Below are positions 2,329 to 57,957 of a DNA stretch of 64,000 nt, piece after piece (position 1 is the first letter of the stretch; each line of letters opens with the position of its first letter). Location of the stretch: NCBI GenBank assembly GCA_022563395.1, contig JADFNM010000001.1, positions 526,342-590,341 on the forward strand, in the 5' to 3' direction. A model generated the notes under the pieces. The model made no database searches. It had not been told where the DNA came from and saw nothing but the letters and a program-made list of their open reading frames with translations. Both the position numbers and the translations under genes were made by a program. This stretch comes from Patescibacteria group bacterium. Lineage in GTDB: Bacteria; Patescibacteriota; Minisyncoccia; Minisyncoccales; UBA10102.

Positions 2329-2904
2329 ATGATTTCTTACCTTAAAGGAAAAGTCATAGCCCAAGGCCCAGATTATATCATAACAGAGACCGGGGGGGTA
2401 GGGTACAAGGTTTATATAGCAGAGAGCCGCCTTTCTTCTTACCCCGTGGGCAAGGAGACGGAGCTGTACTGTCATTTGCATATGAAACGAGAAGAAACCT
2501 TAGAGCTTTACGGCGTGGAGTCGCCTCAGGCGTTGGAAGTGTTTGAAACTCTAAACAATATTTCTGGTATTGGGCCAAAAGCTGCTTTGAACATTGCTTC
2601 CTTGGGTACCATGGAGCAGTTAAGGGGGGCAGTTGAAAAAGGGGATGCAAGCTATTTTGCCAAGGTTCATGGGATAGGGCAAAAAAGGATACAAAAGATT
2701 ATCCTGGAGCTTACCGGAAAGCTAAAAAGCCTGGACCAACAAAAGAATGGCAGACCAGAAGAAAAAGAGGCAGTAGATGCCTTGGTTGCTTTGGGATTTT
2801 CTCGGAAAAAGGCAAAGGAAGCGCTCTCTGAGATTTCTTCTGAAATCTCCCCTGTGGAAGAACGGGTGAAACAGGCCTTACGCCACATTCGCATATCTCC
2901 TTAA
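2329..2904 (+). CDS. ruvA: Holliday junction DNA helicase RuvA
   Basis: 191 aa with N-terminus MISYLKGKV and HhH motifs ISGIGPKAA and VHGIGQKRIQKI. The last codons and stop (ATA TCT CCT TAA) lie inside an R1 repeat flank. Confidence 0.9.
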   Translation: MISYLKGKVIAQGPDYIITETGGVGYKVYIAESRLSSYPVGKETELYCHLHMKREETLELYGVESPQALEVFETLNNISGIGPKAALNIASLGTMEQLRGAVEKGDASYFAKVHGIGQKRIQKIILELTGKLKSLDQQKNGRPEEKEAVDALVALGFSRKKAKEALSEISSEISPVEERVKQALRHIRISP

Positions 2905-2936
2905 TGAGATTAAGGATGCCTTAACGAGAGTAAGGA
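2893..2936. repeat. R1 repeat copy (two direct half-sites)
   Basis: ATATCTCC-TTAATGAGATTAAGGA-tgcc-TTAACGAGAGTAAGGA. It overlaps the ruvA stop codon. Confidence 0.7.
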
Positions 2937-2945
2937 TAGCTTTGC

Positions 2946-4229
2946 ATGCTGAATATTCTTAGAAAAGTTACCCCAAAGTTTCTCTTGAGCTGGTACCATT
3001 TTGTGTGGGCGTTAGCCGGGGCTTTGGTGTTCCGCTTTCCTGCCCGTGGCATGGTTGTTATTGGTGTGACAGGAACCAATGGGAAGTCTACCACTGTGGA
3101 CATGATTTCCCGTATTTTTAAGGAAGCTGGTTTAAACAGCGCCTCCATGTCTTCGGTTCGTTTTCAACTGAAAGATACAGAGTGGCGAAATACCATGAAA
3201 ATGACCATGCCAGGGCGTTTTGTCATCCAACAGTTCTTGCGCCAGGCAAAGACTAAGGGATGCACTCACGTGGTTTTAGAAGTGACGTCAGAAGGAATGC
3301 TCCAACATCGCCACCGCTTCATACCCTTTCACACCGCCGTCTTTACCAATCTTTCGCCAGAACACATTGAACGTCATGGTTCTTTTGAAAACTACAAGAA
3401 AACAAAAGGCAAGCTCTTTTCTCTTGCACAGGGAGTGCATGTTATCAATATAGATGATAAGCATACCCCATTCTTTCTTAAGTTCCCCGCACAAGAGATA
3501 TATACCTATGGCATATATCCTAAACGAGATTTAGGAATTCCTAAATCTCGTTTGAGCACCACACATATTCAAGGAGAAGATGTGAGAGAAAATGGGGGGC
3601 TGGATTTTAAAGCGCTGGGAACTAAATTTCATTTAGGACTTCTTGGTAGGTTTAATGTGTACAATGCTTTAGCTGCAATTGCAGTGGCACGATCTCAGGG
3701 AATCTCTCTTAAAGTTTGCAAAAATGCCCTAGAGAAAATGCAGGTGGTTCCAGGAAGAATGGAAGAAGTGATTTCTTCCCCCTTTCGGGTGGTGGTAGAT
3801 TACGCCTTTACCCCGGCTGCCTTAGAAAAAGTATACGAAACGCTTAAGCCCGCTTCTGGAAAGTTGCTCTGTGTTTTGGGAGCAGCCGGCGGAGGACGGG
3901 ATGCTTGGAAACGCCCTATCTTGGGTAAGATTGCATTGCAACATTGCAACACAGTCATCGTAACAGATGAGGATCCGTATGAAGAAAACCCAGAGAAAAT
4001 CATGGATGAGGTGATTGCGGGGGCCAAGGGAGAAGCAGAGAAGGTGCAAGATAGAAGGCAAGCTGTTGCAAAGGCATTGAGCATGGCACAAGCGGGAGAC
4101 ACCGTTGTTATTACCGGAAAAGGGTCTGAGGATTCCATGGCAGTTAAGGGAGGAAAGAAAATTCCTTGGGATGATAGAGAAGTGGTTAAAGAGGAGTGGA
4201 CGAAACTCAAAGAACGTGGTACGCTTTGA
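2946..4229 (+). CDS. Mur ligase family protein (MurE-like, short, TM-anchored)
   Basis: 427 aa. N-terminal hydrophobic helix, then P-loop GVTGTNGKSTT and a C-terminal Mur ligase domain (VITGKGSE). It lacks the N-terminal UDP-binding domain of canonical MurE. Confidence 0.75.
   Translation: MLNILRKVTPKFLLSWYHFVWALAGALVFRFPARGMVVIGVTGTNGKSTTVDMISRIFKEAGLNSASMSSVRFQLKDTEWRNTMKMTMPGRFVIQQFLRQAKTKGCTHVVLEVTSEGMLQHRHRFIPFHTAVFTNLSPEHIERHGSFENYKKTKGKLFSLAQGVHVINIDDKHTPFFLKFPAQEIYTYGIYPKRDLGIPKSRLSTTHIQGEDVRENGGLDFKALGTKFHLGLLGRFNVYNALAAIAVARSQGISLKVCKNALEKMQVVPGRMEEVISSPFRVVVDYAFTPAALEKVYETLKPASGKLLCVLGAAGGGRDAWKRPILGKIALQHCNTVIVTDEDPYEENPEKIMDEVIAGAKGEAEKVQDRRQAVAKALSMAQAGDTVVITGKGSEDSMAVKGGKKIPWDDREVVKEEWTKLKERGTL
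3519..3556. repeat. R1 repeat copy, in frame within the Mur ligase gene
   Basis: CCTAAACGAGATTTAGGAATTCCTAAATCTCGTTTGAG is translated as PKRDLGIPKSRLS. The left flank GCATATATCC resembles the common GCATATCTCC flank. Confidence 0.85.
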
Positions 4230-5445: not shown

Positions 5446-5520
5446 GCTCTCGTAGTTTAACGGATAGAACGCGGGCCTCCGGAGTTCGCGATACAGGTTC
5501 AATTCCTGTCGAGAGCACCA
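5446..5520 (+). tRNA. tRNA-Arg (anticodon CCG), encoded CCA
   Basis: Cloverleaf by hand: acceptor GCTCTCG/CGAGAGC, D stem GTTT/GAAC, anticodon stem CGGGC/GTTCG with loop CT-CCG-GA, T arm ACAGG-TTCAATT-CCTGT, discriminator A plus CCA. Confidence 0.9.
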
Positions 5521-5568: not shown

Positions 5569-5985
5569 ATGAAAAAGAAAACAACAAGGGCAAAAAAGTC
5601 TACCAAAGTTGCCTCAACGGTGACCCGCCGAAGAGGCGGGAAGGTGGCGCCAAAGAAAAAGAAAAATCTAGGCCCGGGGCGCTCTTCGACCTCTCGCCGC
5701 GGAGGGCTCAAGGCACGCGCCCGCGAGAGACAAGCAGTTGTCTCTCGCCCCATCGGCAGGGTTTCTCATTATTTTGACAACATCAAGGTGGCAGCCATAA
5801 AACTCAAGGCCCCCCTAAAGAAAGGAGACACCATTCGTATTGAAGGGGGGACTACCCTGGTAAAAGTAAAGATTTCTTCAATGCAAAAGAACCACAAGCC
5901 CGTGGCCTCTGCCAAGGCCAGAGACGAGATTGGCATTAAGGTTTCAAAGAAAGTCCGTGAGGGGTACCGCGTCTTTAAGGTGTAA
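5569..5985 (+). CDS. Hypothetical protein, basic N-terminus plus C-terminal small beta-barrel (EF-Tu domain 2-like)
   Basis: 138 aa from the ATG. The C-terminal segment IGRVSHYFDNIKVAAIKLKAPLKKGDTIRIEG...GIKV..VREGYRVFKV resembles translation-factor-like barrel proteins. A GC-rich stretch with an 11-bp perfect hairpin (GCGAGAGACAA/TTGTCTCTCGC) lies in the N-terminal part. Confidence 0.55.
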   Translation: MKKKTTRAKKSTKVASTVTRRRGGKVAPKKKKNLGPGRSSTSRRGGLKARARERQAVVSRPIGRVSHYFDNIKVAAIKLKAPLKKGDTIRIEGGTTLVKVKISSMQKNHKPVASAKARDEIGIKVSKKVREGYRVFKV

Positions 5986-5986
5986 C

Positions 5987-6024
5987 TAAATCTCATTTAG
6001 TTGTTAACAACTAAATGAGATTTA
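5987..6024. repeat. R1 repeat copy (perfect 38-bp palindrome)
   Basis: CTAAATCTCATTTAGTTGT|TAACAACTAAATGAGATTTA(A)G has 19-bp perfect arms around GTTAAC. It lies between the stop at 5985 and the GTG start at 6031. Confidence 0.9.
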
Positions 6025-6030
6025 AGCAAC

Positions 6031-7472: not shown

Positions 7473-7513
7473 CTCCTAAATGAAATTAAAGAATCCTTAA
7501 TTTCATTTAGGAG
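7473..7513. repeat. R1 repeat copy
   Basis: CTCCTAAATGAAATTAAAGAATCCTTAATTTCATTTAGGAG has 17 perfect outer base pairs. It lies between the convergent acyP and pyrD genes. Confidence 0.9.
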
Positions 7514-11519: not shown

Positions 11520-11563
11520 CTTAAATGAAATTAAGGAATCCTTAATTTCATTTAGGAGATATG
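11520..11563. repeat. R1 repeat copy with GGAGATATG flank
   Basis: CTTAAATGAAATTAAGGAATCCTTAATTTCATTTAGGAGATATG. A partial half-site GATGAGATTAAGA lies at 11492-11504. Confidence 0.9.
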
Positions 11564-11570: not shown

Positions 11571-12830
11571 ATGCGAATTGTTGCTGATTTCCACATTCAC
11601 TCTCGTTTTGCGAGAGCCACCTCAAAGAGCATAAACCTGGAGAATCTTGACCTGTGGGCTAAAAAGAAGGGCATTTTAGTCATGGGGACTGGGGACTTTA
11701 CCCACCCCATGTGGATTAAAGAGTTAAAGGCAGAGCTGGAGCCAGCAGAGCAGGGTCTGCAGAAAAGAAAAGGAGGAGGAGAAACAAGGTTTGTCTTTTC
11801 TGCTGAAATCAGCTGCATCTACTCAAAGGGAGGACAGGTAAGAAAGATTCATCTTCTTTTGCTTGTTCCCTCGCTTTCTGCGGTAGAGAAAATCAACACG
11901 CAGCTTTCATGGATAGGGAATCTAAGGAGTGACGGCAGACCCATCTTGGGCATTGATGCAAAGGAAGTGGTAAAGATTGTCTTGGATGCTGACCCCTCTT
12001 CTTTGGTAGTTCCGGCTCACGCTTGGACCCCCTGGTTTTCGATATTTGGGTCAAAATCGGGATTTAACTCGCTTAGAGAATGTTTTGATGAATATACCAA
12101 GTATATCTATGCCATTGAGACCGGGCTTTCCTCAGATCCCGCAATGAATTGGAGGTTGTCTGCGTTGGATACTATCACCCTGCTTAGCAATTCAGATTCA
12201 CATTCCTTAGAAAAGATTGGAAGGGAGGTGAATGTTTTTGATACCGAACTAAGCTATCCTGCAATAAGGGAAGCTATTGTAAAGAAAGACCCAAAGAAAT
12301 TTTTGTTTACTGTTGAGTTTTTTCCCGAGGAAGGAAAATACCATTATGACGGACACCGTCTATGCAATGTTTCCCTGAGTCCAGAAGAGTCAAAAAAACA
12401 AGGAAACCAATGCCATGTATGCAAGAGGCCTTTAACCATTGGGGTATTGAACCGAGTGGCGGAGCTTGCTGATAGGCCCGCCTTCAATAAATCTTCGGCG
12501 GATAAACCAGAAGGTGCAATACCGTACAAATCCCTCATTCCTCTACAAGAAATTATTGCAGATGCACTGCACCAAGGGGTTGGCACCAAGCAAGGAAAGA
12601 CAGAGTATGAAAAGCTTATCTTGAGATTTCAAACCGAGTTTGCAGTGCTTTTAGATGCAAAGGCAGGGGAATTAAAAGAAGCAACGCTTCCTGAAATTGC
12701 AGAGGGCATTGTATGGGCGAGGGAAGGAAAGGTGCAAATTGAACCTGGGTATGACGGGGAGTTTGGCAAGATTAAGATTTTTAAAGATGACGAGCAAAAG
12801 GACAGTGCCATCCAAAAAAGTTTGTTTTGA
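11571..12830 (+). CDS. PHP-domain protein, endonuclease Q-like
   Basis: 419 aa. N-terminal PHP motif DFHIHSRFARATS...GTGDFTHP and an internal zinc-finger-like CNVS...CHVCKRPLTIGVLNRV. The architecture matches EndoQ/TIGR00375-type proteins, judged from memory. Confidence 0.6.
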   Translation: MRIVADFHIHSRFARATSKSINLENLDLWAKKKGILVMGTGDFTHPMWIKELKAELEPAEQGLQKRKGGGETRFVFSAEISCIYSKGGQVRKIHLLLLVPSLSAVEKINTQLSWIGNLRSDGRPILGIDAKEVVKIVLDADPSSLVVPAHAWTPWFSIFGSKSGFNSLRECFDEYTKYIYAIETGLSSDPAMNWRLSALDTITLLSNSDSHSLEKIGREVNVFDTELSYPAIREAIVKKDPKKFLFTVEFFPEEGKYHYDGHRLCNVSLSPEESKKQGNQCHVCKRPLTIGVLNRVAELADRPAFNKSSADKPEGAIPYKSLIPLQEIIADALHQGVGTKQGKTEYEKLILRFQTEFAVLLDAKAGELKEATLPEIAEGIVWAREGKVQIEPGYDGEFGKIKIFKDDEQKDSAIQKSLF

Positions 12831-25476: not shown

Positions 25477-25598
25477 TATAATTTGTCGCGAGTGTCAAAC
25501 TTGTTTTGCACGAGCGACACCTTGGTGTTCTTTTACGGTTGGAACTCCCCTCCAAATTTGCAAAAGCAAATTTGGAGAATAAAAAGGGTCCAAATTAG

Positions 25599-26530: not shown

Positions 26531-28288
26531 ATGATAGTTAAGCATCTAGAAAAACTTGTCCAGAGTGCGCTCAAATCCCTTAAAACCGAAGGTCTCCTTA
26601 ATGAGATTAAGGATTCCTTAATTTCGTTTGAGCATCCGGAGAACCCAGAACACGGGGATTATTCCACCAACGTTGCCCTGGTGCTAGGGAAGCAACTGAA
26701 CCAAAACCCAAGGAAAATTGCAGATTTAATACACTCAAGACTAAACATCAGAGACACAGGGTTTGTAAGCGAAATTAAGGCAGAAGGCCTCGGCTTCATC
26801 AACTTTTTCTTAAAGCAAGAGTACCTTATAGGAGAGTTGCAGGAAGTGATTAAGAAGAAAGAAAAGTATGGTCAAGGCGATGCTCAAAAGAAAAAGGTAA
26901 TGGTTGAGTTTACCGACCCCAACCCCTTCAAGGAGTTTCACATTGGGCATTTGTACAGCAATACCGTTGGGGAGAGTTTGTCTCGACTCCTTGAGGCGCA
27001 GGGAGCTCAGGTAAAGCGGGTGAACTATCAAGGAGATGTGGGGTTGCATGTTGCAAAGGCAGTCTGGGGCATGCAAAGGAATCTTGAAGAACAGCATCTC
27101 TCCCTAAAGGAGTTGGCGAAAAAAGATCTGTCAGTAAGGATGAAGTTTCTCGGGCAGTCATATGCAAAGGGGAACCAAGCGTATGAAACAGGAAACGCAA
27201 AAGAGGATATTGAAAGCTTGAATGCAAAAATCTTCGCCCTAGACAAAGAAATTAAGGAGCTTTATCAGCAAGGCAGAAAATGGAGTCTTGAATATTTTGA
27301 ACAAATCTACAAGCGCTTGGGAACCAAGTTTGACTATTACTACTTTGAAAGCGAAGTAGGAAAGGTAGGGGAAAAGCTTGTAGAAGAAGGAATGAAAAAA
27401 GGAATCTTTGAGAAAAGCCAGGGAGCAGTTATTTTTCCTGGAGAGAAATACGGCCTCCATAGCAGGGTATTCATTACTTCTCAGGGATTGCCAACCTATG
27501 AGGCAAAAGAGCTTGGGTTGGCTCCCACAAAATACAAAGACTTTAAGTATGATCTTTCCCTCATTATTACTGGGAATGAAATCATTGATTATTTTAAAGT
27601 ACTACTGGCCGCATTAAAGGAAATAAATCCAGAGCTTGGGAGAAAAACCAAGCATCTTTCCCACGGCATGGTACGTCTGCCAGAAGGCAAGATGTCGAGC
27701 CGTACCGGAAACGTTGTTACAGGGGAAGAGCTGATTGAAGAGGTAAAAGGCAGAGTACAAAAGATTATGAAGTCCTCGGGAAGCGAGATTCCCGAAAAGG
27801 AGCAGGAAGCTGCAACAGAAAGCATTGCAGTTGGGGCAGTAAAATATTCTTTGTTGAGGATCGGTCTTGGTAGAGATATCACTTTTGATTTTGATAAATC
27901 TCTGAGTTTAGAGGGGGAAAGTGGTCCATATCTTCAATACACGTATGCCAGATGCCGCAGCATCCTCCGCAAGGCAAACTTAAAGAGACTAAGTTATTCA
28001 CACCTTAAAGAAACTAAGTTGCTCCCAGAGGAGATGGCTTTGTTGAGGTTGCTGTATAGATTTCCAGAAATTGTTAGAGATGCAGCAGACAACTTTTCTC
28101 CTAATCTTGTTTGCAGCTTTGTGTTTGATATTGCCCAGGCCTACAACAACTTCTACAACACCCACCGGGTTTTGCAGGCAGAAATTGAGGAGCAAAAGAA
28201 CTTTCGCCTTGTGCTTACTGCAGCCACAGCCCAGATTATTCAGAATTCTCTCAAACTCTTGGGCATTAAAACCCCAGAGCGCATGTAA
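26531..28288 (+). CDS. argS: Arginine--tRNA ligase
   Basis: 585 aa. Motifs HGDYSTNVA, class I motif FHIGHLYS, and GKMSSRTGN, followed by a C-terminal DALR anticodon-binding domain. Confidence 0.95.
   Translation: MIVKHLEKLVQSALKSLKTEGLLNEIKDSLISFEHPENPEHGDYSTNVALVLGKQLNQNPRKIADLIHSRLNIRDTGFVSEIKAEGLGFINFFLKQEYLIGELQEVIKKKEKYGQGDAQKKKVMVEFTDPNPFKEFHIGHLYSNTVGESLSRLLEAQGAQVKRVNYQGDVGLHVAKAVWGMQRNLEEQHLSLKELAKKDLSVRMKFLGQSYAKGNQAYETGNAKEDIESLNAKIFALDKEIKELYQQGRKWSLEYFEQIYKRLGTKFDYYYFESEVGKVGEKLVEEGMKKGIFEKSQGAVIFPGEKYGLHSRVFITSQGLPTYEAKELGLAPTKYKDFKYDLSLIITGNEIIDYFKVLLAALKEINPELGRKTKHLSHGMVRLPEGKMSSRTGNVVTGEELIEEVKGRVQKIMKSSGSEIPEKEQEAATESIAVGAVKYSLLRIGLGRDITFDFDKSLSLEGESGPYLQYTYARCRSILRKANLKRLSYSHLKETKLLPEEMALLRLLYRFPEIVRDAADNFSPNLVCSFVFDIAQAYNNFYNTHRVLQAEIEEQKNFRLVLTAATAQIIQNSLKLLGIKTPERM
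26594..26632. repeat. R1 repeat copy, in frame within argS
   Basis: CTCCTTAATGAGATTAAGGATTCCTTAATTTCGTTTGAG is translated as LLNEIKDSLISFE (ArgS residues 22-34). Confidence 0.85.
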
Positions 28289-28346
28289 ACTTAGTTTAAC
28301 TAAGGACGCATTGAAAAGCGCCTCAAAAGGTGATACTTTACTATAT

Positions 28347-31226
28347 ATGGAAGTGAATTTTCCCAAGCTGGAAGAGCAAATCCTCAAGCGCTGGAGACGA
28401 GAAAAAACCTTTGTAAAATCCGTGGCAAGGAGAAAAAACTCTCCTCGCTTTGTGTTTTACGAAGGTCCTCCCACCGCCAACGGGAAACCAGGTTTGCACC
28501 ATGTGGAGTCCCGGTCTTTTAAAGACGTTGTGCTCCGCTACAAAACCATGCGGGGATTTTTTGTTCCGAGGCGTGCTGGGTGGGATACCCATGGTCTTCC
28601 TGTGGAGCTGGAGGTGGAAAAACAACTGGGGCTAAAGTCCAAAAAAGACATTGAAAAGTACGGCATAGCAAAGTTTAACGAGGAGTGCAGAAAGTCGGTG
28701 TGGAAATACAAGAAAGAGTGGGAAGAGCTCACAAACAGGGCGGGAGTATGGCTGGATACGGATAATGCGTATATTACCTATGAAACCCCGTACATTGAAA
28801 CCCTGTGGCAGATAATCAAAACCTGGTGGCAAAAAGGTCTCTTGTACAAAGACTACAAGGTAGTGCCTTTTTGCACGAGGTGCGGCACTCCCTTGTCTTC
28901 CCATGAGCTGGCCCAGGGGTACAAAACCGTAAAAGACCTTTCTGTCTATGTGAAGTTCAGGGCAAAAGGAAAGAAGCTTCCGCAAAAGACCTTCTTTCTT
29001 GCTTGGACCACCACGCCCTGGACCTTGCCTGGTAACGTTGCCTTGGCAGTAGGCAGGAATATTTCCTATGTCTTGGTAAAAAAAGACAATGAGCATTATC
29101 TCATGGCTAAAGGTTTGGCAGAGAAAGTGCTTCTAAAGTATGACGTTGTCAAAACGTTTTCTGGCAAAGACCTTGTGGGAATGAAATATGAGCCCCTGTT
29201 TTCTTTTAAAAAGCCAGAACAAGGAAAAAAGGCATGGGAAGTTGTTGCAGCAGACTTTGTTTCTACTAAGGAGGGAACCGGCATTGTGCATACCGCAGTT
29301 GCCTACGGAGTAGAGGACTTTGAGCTGGGGAAAAAAGAAAATCTTGCCATGCTCCACCTTGTGGACGAGCAAGGGAAGTTTGTAAAGGAAGCCACTCCTT
29401 TTAAAGGAAAGTTTGTAAAGGATGCTGACCCCTTGATTATAGCCGACCTGAAAAAGCGAAACCTCTTGTTCAAAGAGGAGTGGTATGAGCACGAGTATCC
29501 TTTTTGTTGGAGATGCTCCACACCATTGCTGTATTATGCAAAGGAAACATGGTTTATAAACATGCAGAAGGTGAAAAAACAACTCTTGGCAAACAACAGG
29601 AAGATAAACTGGATTCCAGGACACTTAAAGGAAGGCAGGATGGGAGAATGGCTAAAGGAGGTGAAGGACTGGGCGTTTTCCCGAGAACGGTACTGGGGAA
29701 CTCCATTGCCCATTTGGGAGTGCACCATGTGCGAAGAAAAAGAGGTTATCGGCTCTGTAAAAGAACTGCTTTCAAAGAAGCTTTTGCAAAACCCCTACAA
29801 AGGAAAGAAAGATATTGACTTGCACCGGCCGTATGTAGATGAAGTGGAGTTTCCTTGCACAAACTGCAAGGGAATCATGAAGAGGGTAAAGGATGTGGTG
29901 GATGTTTGGTATGATTCTGGTGCCATGCCCTTTGCCCAAAACCACTGGATGGGAGAAAAGAAACCAAAAGAGTTTCCTGCAGACTATATTGTAGAAGCCA
30001 TAGACCAGACCAGGGGTTGGTTCTATACCCTGCTTGCAGTATCCACGCTTCTTGGTTTTGGTCCCCCGTTCAAGAATGTTATCTCTTTGGGTCATCTGTT
30101 GGACGCAAAGGGAGAAAAGATGTCTAAGTCCAAGGGTAACGTGGTGAATCCTTGGGATGTGGCAGACAAATACGGCATGGATGCGGTGCGCTGGTACTTC
30201 TTTTCTGTAAATCATCCCTGGGACCCGAAGCTTTTTTCCGAGCGAGACCTTCAACAGACCTTAAGAAAGTTTATCTTAACCCTGTGGAATTCCCTGGCGT
30301 TCTATGAAACGTATAATCCTAAACGAGATTTAGGAGTTCCTAAATCTCGTTTAAGCGAGAATGTGCTGGATCAATGGATCGTGTCTCGCTTAAACACAAC
30401 CACAGCAGACATGACAAGGAAGATGGACGAATACGATATTACAGGAGCTGCCCGCGCCTTGGAATCTTTTGTTATTGAAAATCTTTCTCTGTGGTACATT
30501 CGAAGATCGAGAAGCAGGTTTCAGAACCCCAAAAGCAAGAAGGAATTGCAGGATGCGGTTTCAACCCTTGGATATGTACTTTTTCAGACAAGCTTGCTTT
30601 CTGCCCCGTTTATTCCTTTTTTGAGCGAGGTTGTGTTTGAGAAAAGCAATGGAAAAGGGAGCGTACACTTGCAGGATTGGCCCTTCGACCCAGCTCAGGA
30701 TAAACCAAAAGCCCCAAAACAAGATAAAAAATTAGAACAGGAGATGGAGAAAGTACGGCACATTGCAAGCAAAGGGCTGGCCTTGAGGGCAAAGGCGGGT
30801 CTTCGGGTGCGCCAACCCTTGGCAAAACTCACCATAAAAGAAAAACTTCAAAAAGAATTGCTGCTTTTGCTTCAAGATGAGTTAAACGTAAAAGAAGTGG
30901 TGGTGAGCTCAAAGCTTAAAGGGGATGTGCAGTTGGACACCAAACTTACGCCTCAATTAAGAGAAGAGGGGCTGGTGCGGGAGTTGTTGCGCCATATTCA
31001 GGGCATGAGAAAAGATGCAGGGTATAAGCCGCGCCATCGCGTTCGGTTGCGCTATGCCGGGACAGCCGACGTCAAAAATCTGTTTTCTCGCCACAAAGAA
31101 ACCCTTGTAAAGATTGGAGGCATCACAGAACTTTTGGAAGGAGACCGCCCCAAACAGGTGTTTGATATTGAGAAAACAATAAAGATTGGAGGAAAGAAGC
31201 TGTGGCTCGGCATCCGCAAGATTTGA
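28347..31226 (+). CDS. ileS: Isoleucine--tRNA ligase
   Basis: 959 aa from ATG 28347. The 1051-aa track ORF is an upstream extension that overlaps argS. Motifs PPTANGKPGLHH, an editing domain, and KMSKSKGN. Confidence 0.95.
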   Translation: MEVNFPKLEEQILKRWRREKTFVKSVARRKNSPRFVFYEGPPTANGKPGLHHVESRSFKDVVLRYKTMRGFFVPRRAGWDTHGLPVELEVEKQLGLKSKKDIEKYGIAKFNEECRKSVWKYKKEWEELTNRAGVWLDTDNAYITYETPYIETLWQIIKTWWQKGLLYKDYKVVPFCTRCGTPLSSHELAQGYKTVKDLSVYVKFRAKGKKLPQKTFFLAWTTTPWTLPGNVALAVGRNISYVLVKKDNEHYLMAKGLAEKVLLKYDVVKTFSGKDLVGMKYEPLFSFKKPEQGKKAWEVVAADFVSTKEGTGIVHTAVAYGVEDFELGKKENLAMLHLVDEQGKFVKEATPFKGKFVKDADPLIIADLKKRNLLFKEEWYEHEYPFCWRCSTPLLYYAKETWFINMQKVKKQLLANNRKINWIPGHLKEGRMGEWLKEVKDWAFSRERYWGTPLPIWECTMCEEKEVIGSVKELLSKKLLQNPYKGKKDIDLHRPYVDEVEFPCTNCKGIMKRVKDVVDVWYDSGAMPFAQNHWMGEKKPKEFPADYIVEAIDQTRGWFYTLLAVSTLLGFGPPFKNVISLGHLLDAKGEKMSKSKGNVVNPWDVADKYGMDAVRWYFFSVNHPWDPKLFSERDLQQTLRKFILTLWNSLAFYETYNPKRDLGVPKSRLSENVLDQWIVSRLNTTTADMTRKMDEYDITGAARALESFVIENLSLWYIRRSRSRFQNPKSKKELQDAVSTLGYVLFQTSLLSAPFIPFLSEVVFEKSNGKGSVHLQDWPFDPAQDKPKAPKQDKKLEQEMEKVRHIASKGLALRAKAGLRVRQPLAKLTIKEKLQKELLLLLQDELNVKEVVVSSKLKGDVQLDTKLTPQLREEGLVRELLRHIQGMRKDAGYKPRHRVRLRYAGTADVKNLFSRHKETLVKIGGITELLEGDRPKQVFDIEKTIKIGGKKLWLGIRKI
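30318..30355. repeat. R1 repeat copy, in frame within ileS
   Basis: CCTAAACGAGATTTAGGAGTTCCTAAATCTCGTTTAAG is translated as PKRDLGVPKSRLS. Confidence 0.85.
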
Positions 31227-37946: not shown

Positions 37947-37949
37947 TTG

Positions 37950-38019
37950 TTGATATTGCCTAAACGTGTTGATATTGCCTAAACGAGATTTAAGCATGAG
38001 TGCTTAAATCTCGTTTAGG
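37950..38019. repeat. R1 repeat copy with a tandemly duplicated left edge
   Basis: TTGATATTGCCTAAACG occurs twice, 19 bp apart (37950-37966 and 37969-37985). It is followed by the palindrome CCTAAACGAGATTTAAGCA-tgag-TGCTTAAATCTCGTTTAGG (37978-38019). Confidence 0.85.
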
Positions 38020-40510: not shown

Positions 40511-40554
40511 GCATATCTCCTAAATGAAATTAAAGAATCCTTAATTTCATTAAG
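40511..40554. repeat. R1 repeat copy with GCATATCTCC flank
   Basis: GCATATCTCCTAAATGAAATTAAAGAATCCTTAATTTCATTAAG. It is preceded by the small GC hairpin GCCCGC-TTCA-GCGGGC (40487-40502). Confidence 0.9.
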
Positions 40555-41096: not shown

Positions 41097-42035
41097 ATGC
41101 TAATAGATACCCACGGACACGTCAACTTTGCCGCTTTCAAGAATGACGCAAAAGAGGTTCTGCACCGTACCTTGAAAGGAGATACCTGGGTTATAATGCC
41201 AGGCACCCAGTATGCTACCTCAAAGAAAGCAGTAGAAATGGCAGAGCAGTATAGAGAAGGAGTGTATGCCGCAATTGGTCTGCACCCTATTCATCTTTCA
41301 GAAAAGCGCAAGGTTGATGTATTGGAAGTGCAGTCAGAAAACACCAAGGAGGAAGAATGGATGACCTTTGAAACACAAGAGGAGGAGTTTTTGTATGAAA
41401 AGTACAAAGAATTGGGACAAAGCAAAAAGGTGGCGGCAGTCGGTGAGTGCGGCCTGGATTATTACTATGAACCAAAGAGCAAAGAAAGAAGAGAAGCTCA
41501 ACGGCGTAAACAAAAGGCAGCGCTTGCCTTGCAACTGAAGTTGGCAGACGAGCTAAACTTGCCGATTATTTTCCATTGCCGCAAGGCACATGATGATTTG
41601 ATTGAATTTCTAACAAACTACAAACTACAAACTAAAAATTTGAGAGGTGTCGTGCACTGCTACACTGGAGACTTAAAACAGGCAGAGCAGTTCTACAATA
41701 TTGGCCTCTCTTTTGGGTTTAACGGCCTTATTTTCAAAGATGTTCCTGCGCTTCCCAATCCAAAGGAGATTATTGGAGCTTTACCCTTGGAGCGAATTGT
41801 TCTGGAAACTGATTCTCCCTACTTACTGCCGCCCTTGCCCGCCGACCCGGCCTCCGTAGCCACTTCGGCGAAGGGGGCAGCTTTAGCGAAGGCGGGACAG
41901 GCAGGACGCAACGAACCCCTGTTTGTAAAATATGTAGCAGAGGAGATAGCTCGTATTAAAGGTATCTTAGTAGACGAAGTTTCCTCTGCGACAACCAAAA
42001 ACGCCAAAGCCTTATTTCGCTTAAATGAGATTTAG
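41097..42035 (+). CDS. tatD: TatD family metal-dependent deoxyribonuclease/hydrolase
   Basis: 312 aa from ATG 41097 (the track ORF from 40863 is an upstream extension). Motifs IDTHGH, GECGLDYY, HCR, VHCYTG and ETDSPYL. It contains an F2 insertion, and its stop codon lies in an R1 copy. Confidence 0.9.
   Translation: MLIDTHGHVNFAAFKNDAKEVLHRTLKGDTWVIMPGTQYATSKKAVEMAEQYREGVYAAIGLHPIHLSEKRKVDVLEVQSENTKEEEWMTFETQEEEFLYEKYKELGQSKKVAAVGECGLDYYYEPKSKERREAQRRKQKAALALQLKLADELNLPIIFHCRKAHDDLIEFLTNYKLQTKNLRGVVHCYTGDLKQAEQFYNIGLSFGFNGLIFKDVPALPNPKEIIGALPLERIVLETDSPYLLPPLPADPASVATSAKGAALAKAGQAGRNEPLFVKYVAEEIARIKGILVDEVSSATTKNAKALFRLNEI
41832..41906. repeat. F2 GC-rich repeat copy, in frame within tatD (75 nt)
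   Basis: Encodes PLPADPASVATSAKGAALAKAGQAG between the conserved SPYLLP and RNEP. It contains GCGAAGGCGGG (41886-41896) and AGCTTTAGCGAAGG (41879-41892). Confidence 0.7.
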
Positions 42036-42061
42036 GTGTGGATAACTAAATCTCGTTTAAG
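42020..42061. repeat. R1 repeat copy (tatD / mutY-like convergent junction)
   Basis: CTTAAATGAGATTTAGG-tgtggataa-CTAAATCTCGTTTAAG. The tatD stop TAG (42033-42035) lies inside the left arm. Confidence 0.85.
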
Positions 42062-42876: not shown

Positions 42877-42932
42877 GAACCCATTTTAGCACAATGGACA
42901 AATAAGGGGGGATTGGCTACAATCTGTGTATT

Positions 42933-45344
42933 ATGACGCGCTACGAGCATGAGAAAATAGAGGCAAAGTGGCAGAAACGCTGGGAGAAAAAGAAGGCCTG
43001 GGAGGTGGATTTGGACAAGGCAAAAAAGCCCTACTATAACTTAATGATGTTCCCCTATCCTTCAGCAGAGGGGCTGCATGTAGGGAATGTCTATGCCTTT
43101 ACCATCTCTGACATTCATGGAAGGTTCCGCAGAATGCAGGGATATGATGTGTTTGAGCCCATGGGGTTTGATGCCTTTGGCATTCATTCAGAAAACTTTG
43201 CCATTAAACAGGGGACGCACCCAAAAGAGCAGACTGCAAAGAACATTACGCACTTCACAAAACAGCTCAAGCAATTGGGAGCTCTTTTTGATTGGCAAAG
43301 AGCAGTTATTACCAGTGACCCCGAATACTACAAATGGACCCAGTGGCTGTTTGTGCAACTCTACAAAGCAGGTCTGGCATATAAGGGGAAAGCCCCTGTT
43401 GACTGGTGTCCTTCTTGCAAGACCGTGCTGGCAGATGAGCAGGTTATAGAAGGGCAATGCGAACGATGTGACACTCAGGTTGTGCAAAAGGAATTGGAGC
43501 AGTGGTTTTTTCGCATTACCAAGTATGCGGACCGCCTATTAAAAAACTTGGAGTGGATTGACTGGACCGAAAAGACCAAACTCGCGCAAAGAAACTGGAT
43601 TGGAAAGGCAGAAGGCACAACCATAAAATTCAAAGTTCCCAATTCCAAGCATGAGGTTGAAGTCTTTACGACGCGTGCCGATACGCTTTACGGCGCAACG
43701 TTTATTGTTTTAGCACCAGAACACCCCATGGTAGCTTCCCTCCAAAACTCAAAAGAGGTTCAAAAGTATGTAGAGAAATCAAAGCAGAGAACCGAACTGG
43801 AAAGAAAAGCCGAGGAAAAAGAAAAAACAGGCGTTTTCTCGGGCCTGTACGCGATAAACCCGCTCAACAAGGAAAAAATTCCTGTTTGGATTGCTGATTA
43901 TGTGTTAATGGGTTATGGAACAGGTGCCTTGTTTGGAGATGCTCACGACGAGCGTGATGTCGAATTTGCTAGAAAGTATAACATTCCACTCAAACCCACC
44001 GTAATCACAGGAGATAAAGAGAAAGACCGGAAGATCTTAAGCCTTGAAGAATGTTTTACAGGTTATGGCACCTTAGTGGACTCTGGTCCATTTACAGGCT
44101 TGACCTCAAAGGAAGCAATAGCAAAAGTGATGGAGTGGCTTATCAGGAAAGGACAGGGCGGGCGGAAAGTAACGTACCACCTCAGAGATTGGCTTATCTC
44201 TCGTCAGCGCTACTGGGGGTCTCCCATCCCTATTATCTATTGCGCAAAATGCGGCACGGTTCCGGTTCCAGAAAAAGACCTTCCGGTAAAGTTACCCGAG
44301 GTAAAGGATTTTCGACCTTCTGGCACGGGTAAGTCGCCCTTGGCTTCCGTTGCGAGCTTTGTGAAAACCAAGTGCCCTCAATGTAAAGGGCCAGCTGAGA
44401 GGGAAACAGATGTTTCAGACACGTTTTTAGATTCAGCCTGGTATTTTTTCCGCTATCCCTCAACCGAGTTTAAAACAAAACCTTTTGATAAGGTAAGGGT
44501 AAAGAAGTGGCTTCCTGTGAATATGTACATTGGAGGGCACGAGCACGCTGTCTTGCACCTCTTGTACACCAGATTCATTACTATGGCCCTAAAAGACATG
44601 GGACACATTTCTTTTGAGGAACCCTTTGAGAAATTCCGCGCCCACGGTTTAATCACCAAAGGCGGGGTAAAGATGTCCAAATCCAGAGGGAACGTGGTGA
44701 ACCCAGACGAGTACTTTGTAAAGTACGGCGCAGACACGGTGCGTACCTATTTAATGTTTCTGGGTCCTCTGGCAGATGGGGGAGGTTGGTCAGACAGGGG
44801 AATCGTTGGCATCTCCCGGTTTTTCAACCGTCTCTGGGTATTTGTGCCTAAATCTCGTTTAGGAGATCCTAAACGAGATTTAGGAAATGAGGCCTTGCGG
44901 CATAGAACAATCAAGAAAGTTACTGAAGACCTAGAGAATCTGCGATATAACACCGCAATTGCAGCTTGCATGGAATATTTTAATGCCCTTCAAAAATCCA
45001 GCAATCCAACAAAAGAAGAGACAGATACTTTACTCATTCTTCTTTCGCCTTTTGCCCCTCATTTAACGCAAGAACTCTGGGAAAAACTTGGCAACAAGGG
45101 AAGTGTGCATGACCAACCTTGGCCAAAGCATGACCCAAAGGCATTGCAGGAAAAAGTTGTTCGGCTTGTGGTACAGGTGAATGGAAGAGTCAGAGAAGTT
45201 CTTTTAGTTTCTCCCGGCATTTCAGAAAAGGAGGCTGTTGCTCGGGCGCTGCAGCAAGAAAAGGTAAAGAAATGGTTCCCCACGGGAAAGCCAAAGAACG
45301 TGGTGTTTGTGAAAGGAAGATTACTAAATCTTGTATCGTATTAA
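42933..45344 (+). CDS. leuS: Leucine--tRNA ligase
   Basis: 803 aa. Motifs MFPYPSAEGLHVGN, a CP1 editing domain, and VKMSKSRGN. Confidence 0.95.
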   Translation: MTRYEHEKIEAKWQKRWEKKKAWEVDLDKAKKPYYNLMMFPYPSAEGLHVGNVYAFTISDIHGRFRRMQGYDVFEPMGFDAFGIHSENFAIKQGTHPKEQTAKNITHFTKQLKQLGALFDWQRAVITSDPEYYKWTQWLFVQLYKAGLAYKGKAPVDWCPSCKTVLADEQVIEGQCERCDTQVVQKELEQWFFRITKYADRLLKNLEWIDWTEKTKLAQRNWIGKAEGTTIKFKVPNSKHEVEVFTTRADTLYGATFIVLAPEHPMVASLQNSKEVQKYVEKSKQRTELERKAEEKEKTGVFSGLYAINPLNKEKIPVWIADYVLMGYGTGALFGDAHDERDVEFARKYNIPLKPTVITGDKEKDRKILSLEECFTGYGTLVDSGPFTGLTSKEAIAKVMEWLIRKGQGGRKVTYHLRDWLISRQRYWGSPIPIIYCAKCGTVPVPEKDLPVKLPEVKDFRPSGTGKSPLASVASFVKTKCPQCKGPAERETDVSDTFLDSAWYFFRYPSTEFKTKPFDKVRVKKWLPVNMYIGGHEHAVLHLLYTRFITMALKDMGHISFEEPFEKFRAHGLITKGGVKMSKSRGNVVNPDEYFVKYGADTVRTYLMFLGPLADGGGWSDRGIVGISRFFNRLWVFVPKSRLGDPKRDLGNEALRHRTIKKVTEDLENLRYNTAIAACMEYFNALQKSSNPTKEETDTLLILLSPFAPHLTQELWEKLGNKGSVHDQPWPKHDPKALQEKVVRLVVQVNGRVREVLLVSPGISEKEAVARALQQEKVKKWFPTGKPKNVVFVKGRLLNLVSY
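44847..44885. repeat. R1 repeat copy, in frame within leuS (perfect 17-bp arms)
   Basis: CCTAAATCTCGTTTAGG-agat-CCTAAACGAGATTTAGG is translated as PKSRLGDPKRDLG. Confidence 0.9.
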
Positions 45345-45345
45345 A

Positions 45346-45380
45346 CTTAATGAAATTAAGGAATCCTTAATTTCATTAAG
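45346..45380. repeat. R1 repeat copy (perfect 35-bp palindrome), flank supplies the glmS SD
   Basis: CTTAATGAAATTAAGGAATCCTTAATTTCATTAAG is followed by GAGATATTCAT-ATG. The sequence AAGGAG ends 8 nt before ATG 45392. Confidence 0.9.
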
Positions 45381-45391
45381 GAGATATTCAT

Positions 45392-50994: not shown

Positions 50995-51043
50995 ATCGCA
51001 TATCTCCTAAACAAAATTAAGGAAAACCTTAATTTTGTTCAGG
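50995..51043. repeat. R1 repeat copy (variant) with GCATATCTCC flank
   Basis: ATCGCATATCTCCTAAACAAAATTAAGGAAAACCTTAATTTTGTTCAGG. Confidence 0.85.
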
Positions 51044-54179: not shown

Positions 54180-54183
54180 TTCT

Positions 54184-54262
54184 TTAATCTCGTTTAGTTA
54201 TCCACGCCCCTTCGGGTCTGAAGCCCTTCAGGGTCTGAACGACTTAATGAGATTAAGTTTAG
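54184..54262. repeat. Composite: R1 arms separated by a GC-rich F2-like insert
   Basis: The left arm TTAATCTCGTTTAG (54184-54197) and right arm CTTAATGAGATTAAG (54243-54257) are split. The insert is GCCCCTTCGGGTCTGAAGCCCTTCAGGGTCTGAACGA, itself an imperfect direct duplication. Confidence 0.7.
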
Positions 54263-57873: not shown

Positions 57874-57957
57874 TGCCCGGGGTGGGAGTTGAACCCACAC
57901 GGTGTTGCCACCACGGGATTTTGAGTCCCGCATGTCTGCCAGTTCCATCACCCAGGC
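57874..57957 (-). tRNA. tRNA-Leu (anticodon CAA), class II long variable arm
   Basis: Minus-strand cloverleaf: acceptor GCCTGGG/CCCGGGC, anticodon stem CGGGA/TCCCG with loop CT-CAA-AA, variable arm TGGTGGCAACACCGT, T arm GTGGG-TTCAACT-CCCAC. CCA is not encoded. Confidence 0.9.

What the first reader, a model, noticed from the sequence alone, without database searches (positions are those of the whole stretch)
3519..3556. R1 palindrome translated in frame inside the Mur ligase gene (PKRDLGIPKSRLS), using the only stop-free frame
The 38-nt R1 copy lies in frame within ORF 2946-4229 (offset 573 = 191 codons). It reads CCT AAA CGA GAT TTA GGA ATT CCT AAA TCT CGT TTG AGC.

For both arms the other two frames contain stops: CC TAA, and C CTA AAC GAG ATT TAG. 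The arm-to-arm period is 21 nt, so both arms fall in the single open frame. The same frame and the same 21-nt period are used by the ileS and leuS copies. The intergenic copy at 37978 has a different spacer and is closed by TAA.

This pattern is what one expects if insertions into coding DNA survive only in the ORF-compatible phase. Rickettsia palindromic elements are the established precedent for this. The insertion falls in a region between conserved Mur ligase blocks.
Basis: partly seen in the sequence, partly recalled or inferred. Interest (0 to 1): 0.8.

Follow-up and report, generated by a model that had tools for sequence, protein, structure and literature searches.

The report
Translated palindromic repeat inside housekeeping genes
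A 38-base DNA palindrome from a dispersed repeat family sits in frame inside a cell-wall ligase gene of a small-genome (CPR) bacterium; related genomes carry their own sequence versions of it at the same spots, so something keeps rewriting these repeats in place.

Summary
Window 3519-3556 is a near-perfect 38-nt palindrome: two inverted 17-nt arms plus AATT. It lies in frame in a MurE-family ORF and reads PKRDLGIPKSRLS in the only stop-free frame.

It belongs to a REP/REPIN-like family with about 13 copies in 64 kb. Nine copies are intergenic; some supply stop codons or a Shine-Dalgarno sequence. Four are in frame, in murE-like, argS, ileS and leuS.

The RPE-like reading is only partly right.
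- The site is a hypervariable loop, predicted as coil.
- The net indel against palindrome-free orthologues is 7-8 aa, which is one 21-nt unit, not 13 aa.
- Diverged relatives (61-89% aa identity) carry a 38-nt palindrome at the same codon of murE, ileS and leuS. Their cores differ but are still self-complementary (CGAGA, CTAAG, CCAGG, CTCGG and others).
- Copies within a genome are 36-38/38 identical. Orthologous copies between genomes are no more alike than random pairs (25/38).
- 9 of 17 stem pairs covary and G-U pairs are almost absent.
- One relative that lacks the family keeps a decayed 13-aa remnant.

So this is an old insert kept palindromic and homogenised within each genome by a DNA-level process. 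That process is not identified. No transposase lies in the window.

The parts
3519..3556 (+). The finding: a 38-nt palindromic doublet (arm CCTAAACGAGATTTAGG, centre AATT, inverted arm) in frame in the MurE-like gene, aa 192-204 PKRDLGIPKSRLS. The flank GCATATAT at 3511-3518 resembles the family's outer motif GCATATCT.
   Evidence: RNA fold -20.3 kcal/mol, z -7.6; covariance model 57.9 bits
2946..4229 (+). Host gene: a MurE-family ligase paralogue of 427 aa. It has no N-terminal domain and carries a hydrophobic N-terminal helix instead. It is intact and conserved in synteny after ruvA in relatives.
30318..30355 (+). In-frame doublet in ileS (PKRDLGVPKSRLS). It lies in the variable loop at the start of the anticodon-binding domain.
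44847..44884 (+). In-frame doublet in leuS with arms in the opposite order (PKSRLGDPKRDLG). Its 17-nt arms are perfectly complementary (17/17).
26596..26632 (+). In-frame variant doublet (CCTTAATGAGATTAAGG-ATT-CCTTAATTTCGTTTGAG) in the argS N-terminal domain (LNEIKDSLISFE), read in a different frame. It is conserved in L210, decayed in L211 and absent in L209.
37978..38019 (.). Intergenic doublet with an 8-nt spacer, between the AI-2E transporter and methylase genes. It is preceded by a 19-nt tandem duplication at 37948-37985. The same junction in L209 holds that genome's own variant.
42020..42061 (.). Doublet at the tatD 3' end. The tatD stop codon TAG (42033-42035) lies inside the first arm. 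L213 has its own variant at the same place.
2899..2935 (.). Two arms in direct order between ruvA and the MurE-like gene. The ruvA stop TAA (2902-2904) lies in the arm, and the second arm ends in TAAGGA 10 nt before the ATG at 2946. A single arm sits at the same place in L001 and L004.
5985..6026 (.). Intergenic doublet directly after a stop codon and upstream of the amino-acid permease gene. It is orthologous to L004 13150.
7475..7511 (.). Intergenic doublet of the TGAAA-core subfamily (CCTAAATGAAATTAAAG-AAT-CCTTAATTTCATTTAGG), followed by AG.
11520..11556 (.). Intergenic doublet of the TGAAA-core subfamily. Its 3' end TTTAGGAG lies upstream of the ATG at 11571.
40519..40554 (.). Intergenic doublet after metG, preceded by GCATATCT.
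45345..45381 (.). Intergenic doublet that fills the leuS-glmS spacer. It starts right after the leuS TAA, and its end AAGGAG lies 9 nt before the glmS ATG at 45392.
51006..51043 (.). Intergenic doublet (CAAAA core), preceded by GCATATCT.
54182..54198 (.). Single arm directly after the glyA stop codon.

Best explanation
**What it is.** The 38-nt palindrome is one copy of a REP/REPIN-like family of very short palindromic repeats in a Wildermuthbacteria-type (Patescibacteria/CPR) genome.

**Anatomy (shown).**
- The unit is a 17-nt arm that is itself a mini-hairpin (CCTAAA-N5-TTTAGG).
- Two inverted arms around a 3-8-nt centre make a 17-19-bp hairpin or cruciform.
- The conserved ends CCTAR/YTAGG put TAA or TAG in two of the three frames on both strands.

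**Consequences of the anatomy (shown).**
- Inside genes, only copies in the CCT-AAR phase with an arm period that is a multiple of 3 (21 nt = 7 codons) leave the ORF open.
- Between genes, the same stop codons end upstream ORFs, and the 3' ...TAGGAG end can serve as a ribosome-binding site.
- The murE-like copy lies in a surface loop of variable length. It adds 7-8 residues net and is read through as PKRDLGIPKSRLS.

**History (shown).** The insert is old. It is shared with relatives at 71-86% aa identity.

**Mechanism (inferred).**
- The family is kept perfectly self-complementary and near-identical within each genome by a DNA-level copying process acting on existing copies.
- The candidates are hairpin-specific excision and re-insertion by a trans-acting enzyme of the RAYT / IS200-IS605 kind, short-patch gene conversion between copies, and arm-to-arm template switching.
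- Each lineage therefore shows its own core 'dialect' at the same gene positions. Where the activity is lost, the insert decays into ordinary loop sequence.
- The peptide itself has no function. Selection only demands that it be tolerated.
For: **Family and distribution**
- Searches find 12 doublets by covariance model, plus one direct pair, in 64 kb.
- Other Patescibacteria ileS loci give 0 hits in 1.14 Mb.
- 9 of 13 copies lie in the roughly 12% of the window that is non-coding. My binomial estimate is p about 2e-6.
- Element-borne stop codons and Shine-Dalgarno sequences are shown.

**In-frame copies in loops**
- In-frame placement.
- Hypervariable loops.
- The AlphaFold model (mean pLDDT 90.6) puts aa 190-203 in coil between two strands, with local pLDDT 72-80.

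**Nucleotide-level rather than protein-level constraint**
- Pro is always CCT and Leu is TTA or CTA in intact arms. Genome usage is 28% for CCT and 18% for TTA plus CTA.

**Same codon, different compensated cores**
- murE: window, L001, L002 and L006, with a single arm in L004.
- ileS: window, L209, L210, L211 and L076.
- leuS: window, L212 (8 coordinated changes at 86% aa identity) and L213.
- Intergenic: the AI-2E/methylase junction and the tatD 3' end.

**Covariation**
- 97% of cells are paired, 9 of 17 pairs change on both sides, and 42 cells are compensated, with 0 of 500 shuffles reaching this. Only 3 of 238 cells are G-U.
- 11 of 20 doublets have a self-complementary centre, AATT or AGCT.

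**Genome-specific dialects**
- The second genome (JAQBTT/MEHR18) has 8 of 8 copies with the CTAAG core.
- L213's leuS and tatD copies share the CCGAG core.
- Within a genome, paralogues are 36-38/38 identical if arm order is ignored. Orthologues between genomes average 25/38, the same as random between-genome pairs.

**Decay and turnover**
- L129 has no family members in 17.8 kb, and its ileS keeps a 13-aa remnant with 5 of 17 positions complementary.
- The nth-leuS spacer holds an element in L212 and L213 but not in the window.

**Precedents**
- Intragenic REP dimers, and REP ends that supply stop codons (PMC3733652).
- REP classes that track host clades and cognate RAYTs (PMC3686654).
Against: - No RAYT, IS200/IS605 or other transposase gene is found among the window ORFs scanned against Pfam. 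The rest of the genome could not be read, so the trans-acting factor is pure inference.
- The GTAG or CGTC tag that defines the known REP superfamilies is absent.
- No target-site duplication is seen.
- Five assemblies of the same species show no presence/absence change at three elements, so there is no sign of current mobility.
- Within the closest clade (at least 86% aa identity), the murE and ileS copies share old terminal mismatches (TTTGAG, TTTAAG) and look vertically inherited with slow decay. Any rewriting is therefore episodic.
- Some genomes (TARA, L212) hold several dialects at once.
- Several of the sequences used for covariation were selected because they were palindromic, or by PK..LG peptides. 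This inflates the percentage paired.
- Translation of the insert is inferred from ORF integrity only.
Confidence: 0.55

Rival explanations
1. This is the first reader's reading: a one-off insertion of a mobile, RPE-like miniature element that landed in an ORF-compatible phase. It is now a passive passenger evolving neutrally.
For: - The repeat family is dispersed.
- The copy is in frame in a tolerant loop.
- Orthologues without it exist.
- The remnant in L129 and the decaying copies in P0241-P0244, P0260 and L001 look neutral.
- RPEs are a precedent (PMC10969869).
Against: - The same codon is occupied in lineages at 61-80% identity by perfect palindromes with different cores. Neutral passengers would lose complementarity, as L129 did.
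- Identity follows the genome, not the locus.
- The net indel is 7-8 aa, not the element length.
Confidence: 0.15
2. The palindromes are functional structures kept by selection at each site. Each site evolves in place by compensatory mutation, with no copying between loci. Possible roles are DNA cruciforms or binding sites for a dimeric protein, or RNA hairpins such as RNase III sites, mRNA stabilisers or translational pause signals.
For: - Covariation is strong.
- Positions are conserved across deep divergence, including intergenic gene ends where other lineages have unrelated hairpins.
- Folds are stable: -20 to -44 kcal/mol, z -6 to -10.
- The ends are conserved.
- The 21-bp arm spacing equals two helical turns.
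Against: - Independent compensatory drift would not give the same core at many loci of one genome, nor recurring core types across genes.
- Many relatives do without the element at every site.
- The near absence of G-U pairs and the self-complementary centres argue against an RNA-level target.
- There is no Rfam match.
Confidence: 0.15
3. Uptake-sequence-like molecular drive. The arm would be a preferred DNA-uptake or recombination signal. Biased uptake plus homologous replacement from conspecific DNA would enrich it and update it in place, as with USS/DUS dialects.
For: - Dialects sit at orthologous positions.
- Copies occur in tolerant coding loops in a fixed frame and as inverted pairs at gene ends.
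- From general knowledge, not tested here: Patescibacteria commonly encode competence machinery.
Against: - Arms occur almost only as tight inverted pairs. The window has 12 doublets against at most 3 single arms, whereas uptake signals are mostly single.
- Density of about 1 per 5 kb is lower than for USS/DUS.
- Complementarity between the two arms' variable 5-nt loops has no role in an uptake model.
Confidence: 0.07
4. It is native loop sequence that is palindromic by chance, or an assembly artefact.
For: A single-arm-like stretch (TKFHLG, 3621-3637) does lie in a conserved MurE motif.
Against: - 0 matches are expected by chance.
- The element appears in independent assemblies.
- Codon choice is fixed.
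- Identical arms occur in unrelated genes.
Confidence: 0.02

Closest known systems
Intragenic REP dimers / REPINs (GTAG- and CGTC-tagged REP superfamilies; Di Nocera et al. 2013, PMC3733652; REP-RAYT systems, PMC3686654, bioRxiv 10.1101/2021.07.10.451892)
   Same: - Short stem-loop units of about 17-40 nt, mostly paired head-to-head into a longer hairpin.
- Tens of copies or more, mostly just downstream of ORFs.
- Ends that provide stop codons.
- Some dimers lie inside genes for replication, repair and translation proteins and encode 13-30 extra residues.
- The sequence class is specific to the host clade.
   Different: - No GTAG or CGTC tag.
- Much tighter doublets, with a 3-8-nt centre that is often itself palindromic.
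- The host phylum (Patescibacteria) is not among those described.
- The fraction of in-frame copies is high: 4 of 13 in the window, and most of the 8 in the second genome.
- Clade-specific variants replace each other at the same codon of the same genes.
- No RAYT has been seen.
Rickettsia palindromic elements (RPE; Ogata et al. 2000, as summarised in PMC10969869)
   Same: - A palindromic repeat inserted in frame into unrelated housekeeping genes.
- One reading frame is used.
- Copies sit at positions compatible with the protein fold.
- Copies also occur between genes.
   Different: - RPEs are about 100-150 bp and restricted to Rickettsia; this element is 38-54 nt.
- No sequence relation is known, and none was tested by alignment.
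- From my recollection of Ogata et al. 2002 (not checked here), RPE copies at orthologous sites look vertically inherited and diverge with the host. Here identity follows the genome rather than the locus.
Quasipalindrome correction by template switching, and coding palindromes of Nematomorpha mitochondria (PMC6649704)
   Same: - Perfect inverted repeats persist inside translated genes while their sequence changes.
- The constraint is at DNA level, with strict Watson-Crick symmetry.
   Different: - The Nematomorpha repeats are long (up to 284 bp), unique to each locus and encode conserved residues.
- Here a short dispersed family is involved, and the peptide is unconstrained.
DNA uptake sequences (USS/DUS) and HIP1 of cyanobacteria (PMC5861425, PMC4390886)
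   Same: - Short motifs are over-represented genome-wide, including inside genes in tolerated frames.
- They are kept at conserved positions.
- Lineage-specific variants exist.
   Different: - Those motifs are 8-12 nt, mostly single and far denser.
- They do not need two arms with complementary variable cores.

Membership tests
REP / REPIN | Short (about 20-40 nt) imperfect palindrome repeated many times in one genome | tested here: met
   The 17-nt arm has 20 matches against 0.2 expected. The covariance model finds 12 doublets in 64 kb.
REP / REPIN | Units paired in inverted orientation so that they form a larger hairpin (REPIN / dimer) | tested here: met
   Inverted pairs are listed. Folds are -20 to -28 kcal/mol with z about -6 to -8.
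REP / REPIN | Predominantly extragenic, close to ORF 3' ends | tested here: met
   9 of 13 copies lie in the roughly 12% non-coding DNA, several abutting or overlapping stop codons. However, 4 of 13 are intragenic, and in the second genome most copies are intragenic.
REP / REPIN | Conserved unpaired GTAG (or CGTC) tetranucleotide tag at one end | tested here: not met
   The ends are CCTAR...YTAGG, with the outer motif GCATATCT / AGATATGC. No GTAG or CGTC tag was seen.
REP / REPIN | A cognate single-copy RAYT (Y1 transposase, PF01797) gene flanked by the repeats | not testable with these tools
   None was found among the window ORFs scanned against Pfam. The other roughly 600 kb of the genome could not be fetched.
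Rickettsia palindromic elements (RPE) | In-frame insertion into ORFs of unrelated housekeeping genes | tested here: met
   The copies in murE-like, ileS and leuS are at offset 0 mod 3, and the argS copy is also in frame.
Rickettsia palindromic elements (RPE) | Element of about 100-150 bp belonging to RPE sequence families 1-10 of Rickettsia | tested here: not met
   The element is 38 nt (54 nt with outer flanks) and the host is a Patescibacteria genome. Sequence comparison with RPE consensus sequences was not run.
Rickettsia palindromic elements (RPE) | The insert lies where the protein fold tolerates it (surface loop) | tested here: met
   The AlphaFold model shows coil between two strands with lower local pLDDT. 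The loop length is hypervariable, 21-79 aa between anchors. Solvent exposure was not computed.
Rickettsia palindromic elements (RPE) | The insert is translated | not testable with these tools
   Translation is inferred only. All of the roughly 9 distinct coding sites use the one open phase.
MITE | Terminal inverted repeats flanked by a target-site duplication, derived from a parent IS | tested here: not met
   No direct duplication flanks the copies. No parent IS or transposase lies in the window.
DNA uptake sequence (USS/DUS) | Short asymmetric motif, mostly single, about 1 per kb, both orientations | tested here: not met
   Arms occur almost only as tight inverted pairs, at about 1 doublet per 5 kb.
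Rfam RNA families | Match to a curated covariance model | tested here: not met
   There is no match at 3400-3700 at E up to 1. The only matches in the window are a tmRNA and two tRNAs.

The most novel reading that the evidence does not exclude
Some CPR/Patescibacteria lineages possess an unrecognised DNA-level system that rewrites about 40-nt palindromes in place, including inside essential genes such as ileS, leuS, uvrC, rnhB and dprA. Candidates are a hairpin- or cruciform-specific nuclease/transposase, or templated conversion from a master copy. Each genome would then carry its own 'dialect' at fixed positions while the ends CCTAR/YTAGG stay constant. The ends carry built-in stop codons in two frames and a Shine-Dalgarno-like AGGAG, so the element would double as portable gene punctuation (stop + hairpin + ribosome-binding site) in very compact genomes.
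Probability: 0.3. Interest if true: 0.85.

Novelty: new variant of a known kind. Interest (0 to 1): 0.65.

Why it matters
**If the picture holds.** Short palindromic repeats in CPR bacteria are more than junk tolerated in protein loops. They would be a population of sequences kept perfect and genome-specific at fixed places, even inside essential genes.

**What becomes testable.** How REP-like sequences undergo concerted evolution is an old, unsettled question. Here the same codon in the same gene can be followed across many lineages, with the reading frame as an internal control.

**Practical consequences.**
- These inserts create lineage-specific 7-14-residue peptides (PKxxLGxPKxxLG) in aminoacyl-tRNA synthetases and repair enzymes.
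- They can mislead alignments, start-codon calls and phylogenies of CPR marker genes. Two apparent 'coding' copies turned out to lie upstream of the true start codon.

Tried and rejected
- **Public genome scan** with a general doublet pattern. Only about 15 loci were true palindromes, so no census of the source genome was obtained.
- **Metagenome scan with IleS**. It returned mainly distant relatives (45-60% identity) without the element. These were useful only as a negative control.
- **Two viral-contig scans** for the window dialect and the second dialect found 0 hits. There is no sign of a phage vehicle.
- **Rate test, window versus L001.** The element shows 3 differences in 38 nt against a mean of 6.7, but 20% of 38-nt windows are as conserved. 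This is not significant and was dropped as evidence for constraint.
- **'5 of 5 coding' in the second genome** was corrected. The L125/L209 copy lies just upstream of the methylase gene's evident start, judged by alignment with the window. For L065 I judged the true start to be a downstream Met; this was not tested.
- **Transposase search** among the window ORFs scanned against Pfam found none.
- **Strain-level comparison** of five assemblies showed no polymorphism at three elements.
- **Rejected ideas:** an RNA intron or bypass (all copies use the open phase), a protein-level motif (no synonymous variation), parS, operator or attC sites, and CRISPR repeats. None of these fits the anatomy.
Full report
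**1. The observation**

Window 3519-3556 reads CCTAAACGAGATTTAGG-AATT-CCTAAATCTCGTTTGAG.
- The two 17-nt arms are complementary at 15 of 17 positions.
- Because the centre AATT is self-complementary, there is a 32-nt perfect palindrome at 3522-3553.
- Each arm is also a mini-hairpin: CCTAAA, a 5-nt loop, then TTTAGG.
- The element starts 573 nt into ORF 2946-4229 and is read CCT AAA CGA GAT TTA GGA ATT CCT AAA TCT CGT TTG AGC, giving PKRDLGIPKSRLS.
- The 38-mer (up to 3 mismatches) has 2 matches in the window against 0 expected. The arm has 20 matches against 0.2 expected.
- As RNA it folds at -20.3 kcal/mol, z = -7.6.

**2. Host and organism**

- The ORF carries Mur_ligase_M and Mur_ligase_C.
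- Its closest relatives are annotated as MurE of Candidatus Wildermuthbacteria / Patescibacteria.
- It is in fact a paralogue without the N-terminal domain. It passes only the murE subfamily model.
- A full-length murE that passes an equivalog model lies at 14173-15672 on the minus strand.
- The paralogue is conserved in synteny (uvrB, ruvA, this gene, NIF3-like) in relatives down to about 70% identity.

**3. The family in the window**

A covariance model built from 14 doublets finds 12 doublets in the window: 3519, 5985, 7475, 11520, 26596, 30318, 37978, 40519, 42020, 44847, 45346 and 51006. There is also a direct pair at 2899 and a single arm at 54182.

*Intergenic copies*
- Nine of the 13 paired copies lie in the roughly 12% of the window that is non-coding. 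My binomial estimate is p about 2e-6.
- These copies hug gene ends:
  - the ruvA stop TAA and the tatD stop TAG lie inside arms;
  - the leuS-glmS spacer is essentially one element, whose AAGGAG end lies 9 nt before the glmS ATG;
  - the arm before the MurE-like gene ends in TAAGGA 10 nt before its ATG.
- An outer motif, GCATATCT, directly precedes three elements exactly and the murE copy with one mismatch. That accounts for 3 of its 4 exact occurrences in the window.

*In-frame copies*
- Four copies are in frame in genes: the MurE-like gene, ileS (PKRDLGVPKSRLS), leuS (PKSRLGDPKRDLG) and a CCTTAA variant in argS.
- Coding doublets have arm periods of 21 nt (24 nt in one copy of a related genome). 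Intergenic ones have 20, 21 or 25 nt.
- The ends CCTAR and YTAGG carry TAA or TAG in two frames on both strands.

**4. Is it an insertion?**

- In an alignment of 120 homologues the site is a loop of very variable length.
- Between two invariant anchors the loop is 54 aa in all doublet carriers, 47 aa in single-arm carriers (P0008 SPKSSLG, P0020 PKKGLG) and 46 aa (median) in the rest, including close relatives at 74-79% identity.
- The net gain is therefore one 21-nt unit (7-8 aa), not a clean 13-aa block.
- The AlphaFold model (mean pLDDT 90.6) puts residues 190-203 in coil between strands 184-189 and 204-215, with local pLDDT 72-80 against more than 90 around it.

**5. The same codon carries different palindromes in relatives**

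This is the unexpected result. DNA of the orthologues shows the following.

| Gene | Locus | Sequence or note |
|---|---|---|
| murE-like | L001 (86% aa) | CCTAAAGGAGATTTAGG-AACT-CCTCAATCTCGTTTGAG; shares the derived TTTGAG, so it is orthologous and slightly decayed |
| murE-like | L002 (72%) | CCTAAGCTAAGCTTAGG-AGCT-CCTAAGCTTAGCTTAGG; a 54-nt palindrome with its flanks, -43.6 kcal/mol |
| murE-like | L006 (71%) | CCTAGACCAGGTCTAGG-AGTT-CCTAGACCTGGTCTAGG |
| murE-like | L004 (74%) | single arm |
| ileS | window, L209, L210, L211, L076 | five different cores, all starting two codons after the conserved ...ACN TAT |
| leuS | L212 (86%) | CCTAGGTCTCGCCTAGG-AGTT-CCTAGGCGAGACCTAGG; eight coordinated changes relative to the window |
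| leuS | L213 | core CTCGG / CCGAG |

Protein alignments show the same pattern more widely. The recurring pairs RD/SR, LS/LS, PG/PG, LG/PS and LR/RS are exactly the translations of complementary hexamers.

Two intergenic positions behave the same way: the AI-2E/methylase junction and the tatD 3' end.

**6. Quantification**

- On 14 doublets, 97.1% of cells pair, 9 of 17 pairs change on both sides, and 42 cells are compensated. No shuffle out of 500 reaches this, and slid controls collapse.
- Only 3 of 238 cells are G-U.
- 11 of 20 doublets have a self-complementary centre, AATT or AGCT, against a chance of 1 in 16.
- Pro is always CCT and Leu is TTA or CTA in intact arms, against 28% and 18% in the genome.
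- Together these point to a DNA-level constraint with strict Watson-Crick symmetry, not to a protein-level or RNA-level one.
- Caveat: several sequences were picked because they were palindromic or because of PK..LG peptides.

**7. Identity follows the genome**

- The second genome (JAQBTT / MEHR18; loci L002, L003, L045, L048, L065, L125, L209) has eight copies, all with the CTAAG core. They lie in murE-like, ileS, argS (C-terminal part), rnhB, uvrC and two 5' regions.
- L213 has the same core in leuS and after tatD.
- Paralogues within a genome are 36-38/38 identical once arm order is ignored. Orthologous copies between genomes average 25/38, the same as random between-genome pairs.
- An NJ tree of IleS shows one clade in which nearly every member has the element, with cores differing by subclade. 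In a second clade the presence is patchy.
- L129, a 79% IleS relative, has no family member in 17.8 kb. Its ileS keeps a 13-aa remnant with 5 of 17 positions complementary.
- The nth-leuS spacer holds an element in L212 and L213 but not in the window.
- 1.14 Mb around ileS of more distant Patescibacteria has no copy.
- Related palindromes occur in MAGs labelled Yanofskybacteria (dprA) and Saccharibacteria.

**8. Interpretation**

*Shown*
- A REP/REPIN-like family exists in this genome.
- Its in-frame copies sit in tolerant loops in the only open phase.
- The murE insert is old.
- The palindrome is maintained with compensated, genome-specific cores.
- The insert decays where the family is absent.

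*Inferred*
- Translation of the 13 codons. All of about 9 distinct coding sites use the open phase, which would not be required if the element were removed before translation.
- A DNA-level copying process that renews existing copies. The candidates are a RAYT/IS200-like hairpin transposase, short-patch conversion, or template switching between arms.

*Against a currently active process*
- No transposase lies in the window.
- There is no target-site duplication.
- Five conspecific assemblies are identical at three elements.
- Within the closest clade, the copies share old terminal mismatches and look vertically inherited.

*Rivals*
- The plain passenger-insertion reading explains the frame use and the decaying copies, but not the renewed perfect palindromes.
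- A purely site-by-site functional hairpin does not explain shared cores within a genome.
- An uptake-signal-like drive does not explain obligate pairing of arms with complementary loops.

**9. Comparison with known systems**

- The closest are intragenic REP dimers (PMC3733652) and REPIN-RAYT systems (PMC3686654). The architecture, the placement at gene ends, the end-borne stop codons and the clade-specific sequence classes all match.
- However, the defining GTAG/CGTC tag is absent and a RAYT could not be looked for. I therefore do not file it as a member.
- It works like Rickettsia RPEs in being read in frame (PMC10969869), but it is a quarter of their size and behaves differently across genomes.
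- No Rfam family matches.
- My literature searches found no description of such elements in CPR bacteria.

**10. Verdict**

- It is a new variant of a known kind, with one surprising property: genome-specific rewriting at fixed codons of essential genes.
- Interest 0.65.

Noticed in passing
window 2946-4229 and 14173-15672(-): The window has two MurE-family genes. The host of the finding lacks the N-terminal domain, has a hydrophobic N-terminal helix and passes only the subfamily model. The other is a full-length murE that passes an equivalog model. The substrate of the truncated paralogue is unknown.
   Followed up: partly
window 37948-37985: A 19-nt tandem duplication, TGTTGATATTGCCTAAACG twice, includes 11 nt of flank and the first 8 nt of the 37978 element. 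It looks like slippage at the hairpin rather than a target-site duplication.
   Followed up: no
window 3621-3637 (and L001 10676): ACTAAATTTCATTTAGG encodes the conserved MurE motif TKFHLG. It is 15/17 identical to the intergenic arm CCTTAATTTCATTTAGG (7495, 11540). It could be chance, a source of the arm, or a conversion product.
   Followed up: no
window 2891, 40511, 50998 (and 3511): The octamer GCATATCT directly precedes elements in 3 of its 4 exact occurrences. The inverse, AGATATG, follows others (11557, 45382). The full element may therefore be a 54-nt nested palindrome. In ruvA the last four codons (R I S P, then stop) come from it.
   Followed up: partly
IleS, LeuS and MurE-like homologues, e.g. 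P0276, P0284, P0050, P0058: In other Wildermuthbacteria the same loops hold peptides such as KIQNPKSKI or NTKYQILNTKYQ. These are what heptanucleotide tandem repeats give when read through three frames. The DNA was not inspected.
   Followed up: no
IleS homologues P0249-P0360: Most IleS relatives are 1,120-1,240 aa long and carry a histidine-phosphatase domain (PF00300) that the window's 959-aa IleS lacks.
   Followed up: no
MurE-like homologues P0108, P0120: Some MurE-like relatives are fused to an archease domain (PF01951).
   Followed up: no
L213 8079-9005: L213 has a tyrosine recombinase (Phage_integrase) gene between tatD and nth, next to that genome's element. The window has only the 42020 element there.
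   Followed up: no
L212 217-254, L213 9924-9966, against window 42877-42932: The nth-leuS spacer holds a palindromic element in two relatives (with different cores) and none in the window. Downstream, the leuS promoter-like region (TGGACAAATAAG...TACAAT) is conserved.
   Followed up: partly
L002 17995-19730: In this relative the orthologue of window ORF 11571-12830 (MJ0043_C-like) is 836 aa and has faint intein and LAGLIDADG hits. The window copy is 419 aa with no Pfam hit.
   Followed up: no
window 25596-25951(-), 5446-5517(+), 57874-57957(-): A tmRNA lies next to smpB, and there are two tRNA genes. Nothing unusual was seen.
   Followed up: no
window 28071-28346: The mechanical ileS ORF starts at a TTG inside argS. 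The Pfam match begins at residue 103, and the likely start is the ATG at 28347.
   Followed up: partly
L009-L128: Many Bacteroidota genomes (Prevotella, Chitinophagaceae, Flavihumibacter, Paludibacteraceae) hold tandem arrays of 11- or 22-nt units built on CCTAGG or CCTAA...TTAGG. These are unrelated to the palindromic doublets but matched the search pattern.
   Followed up: no
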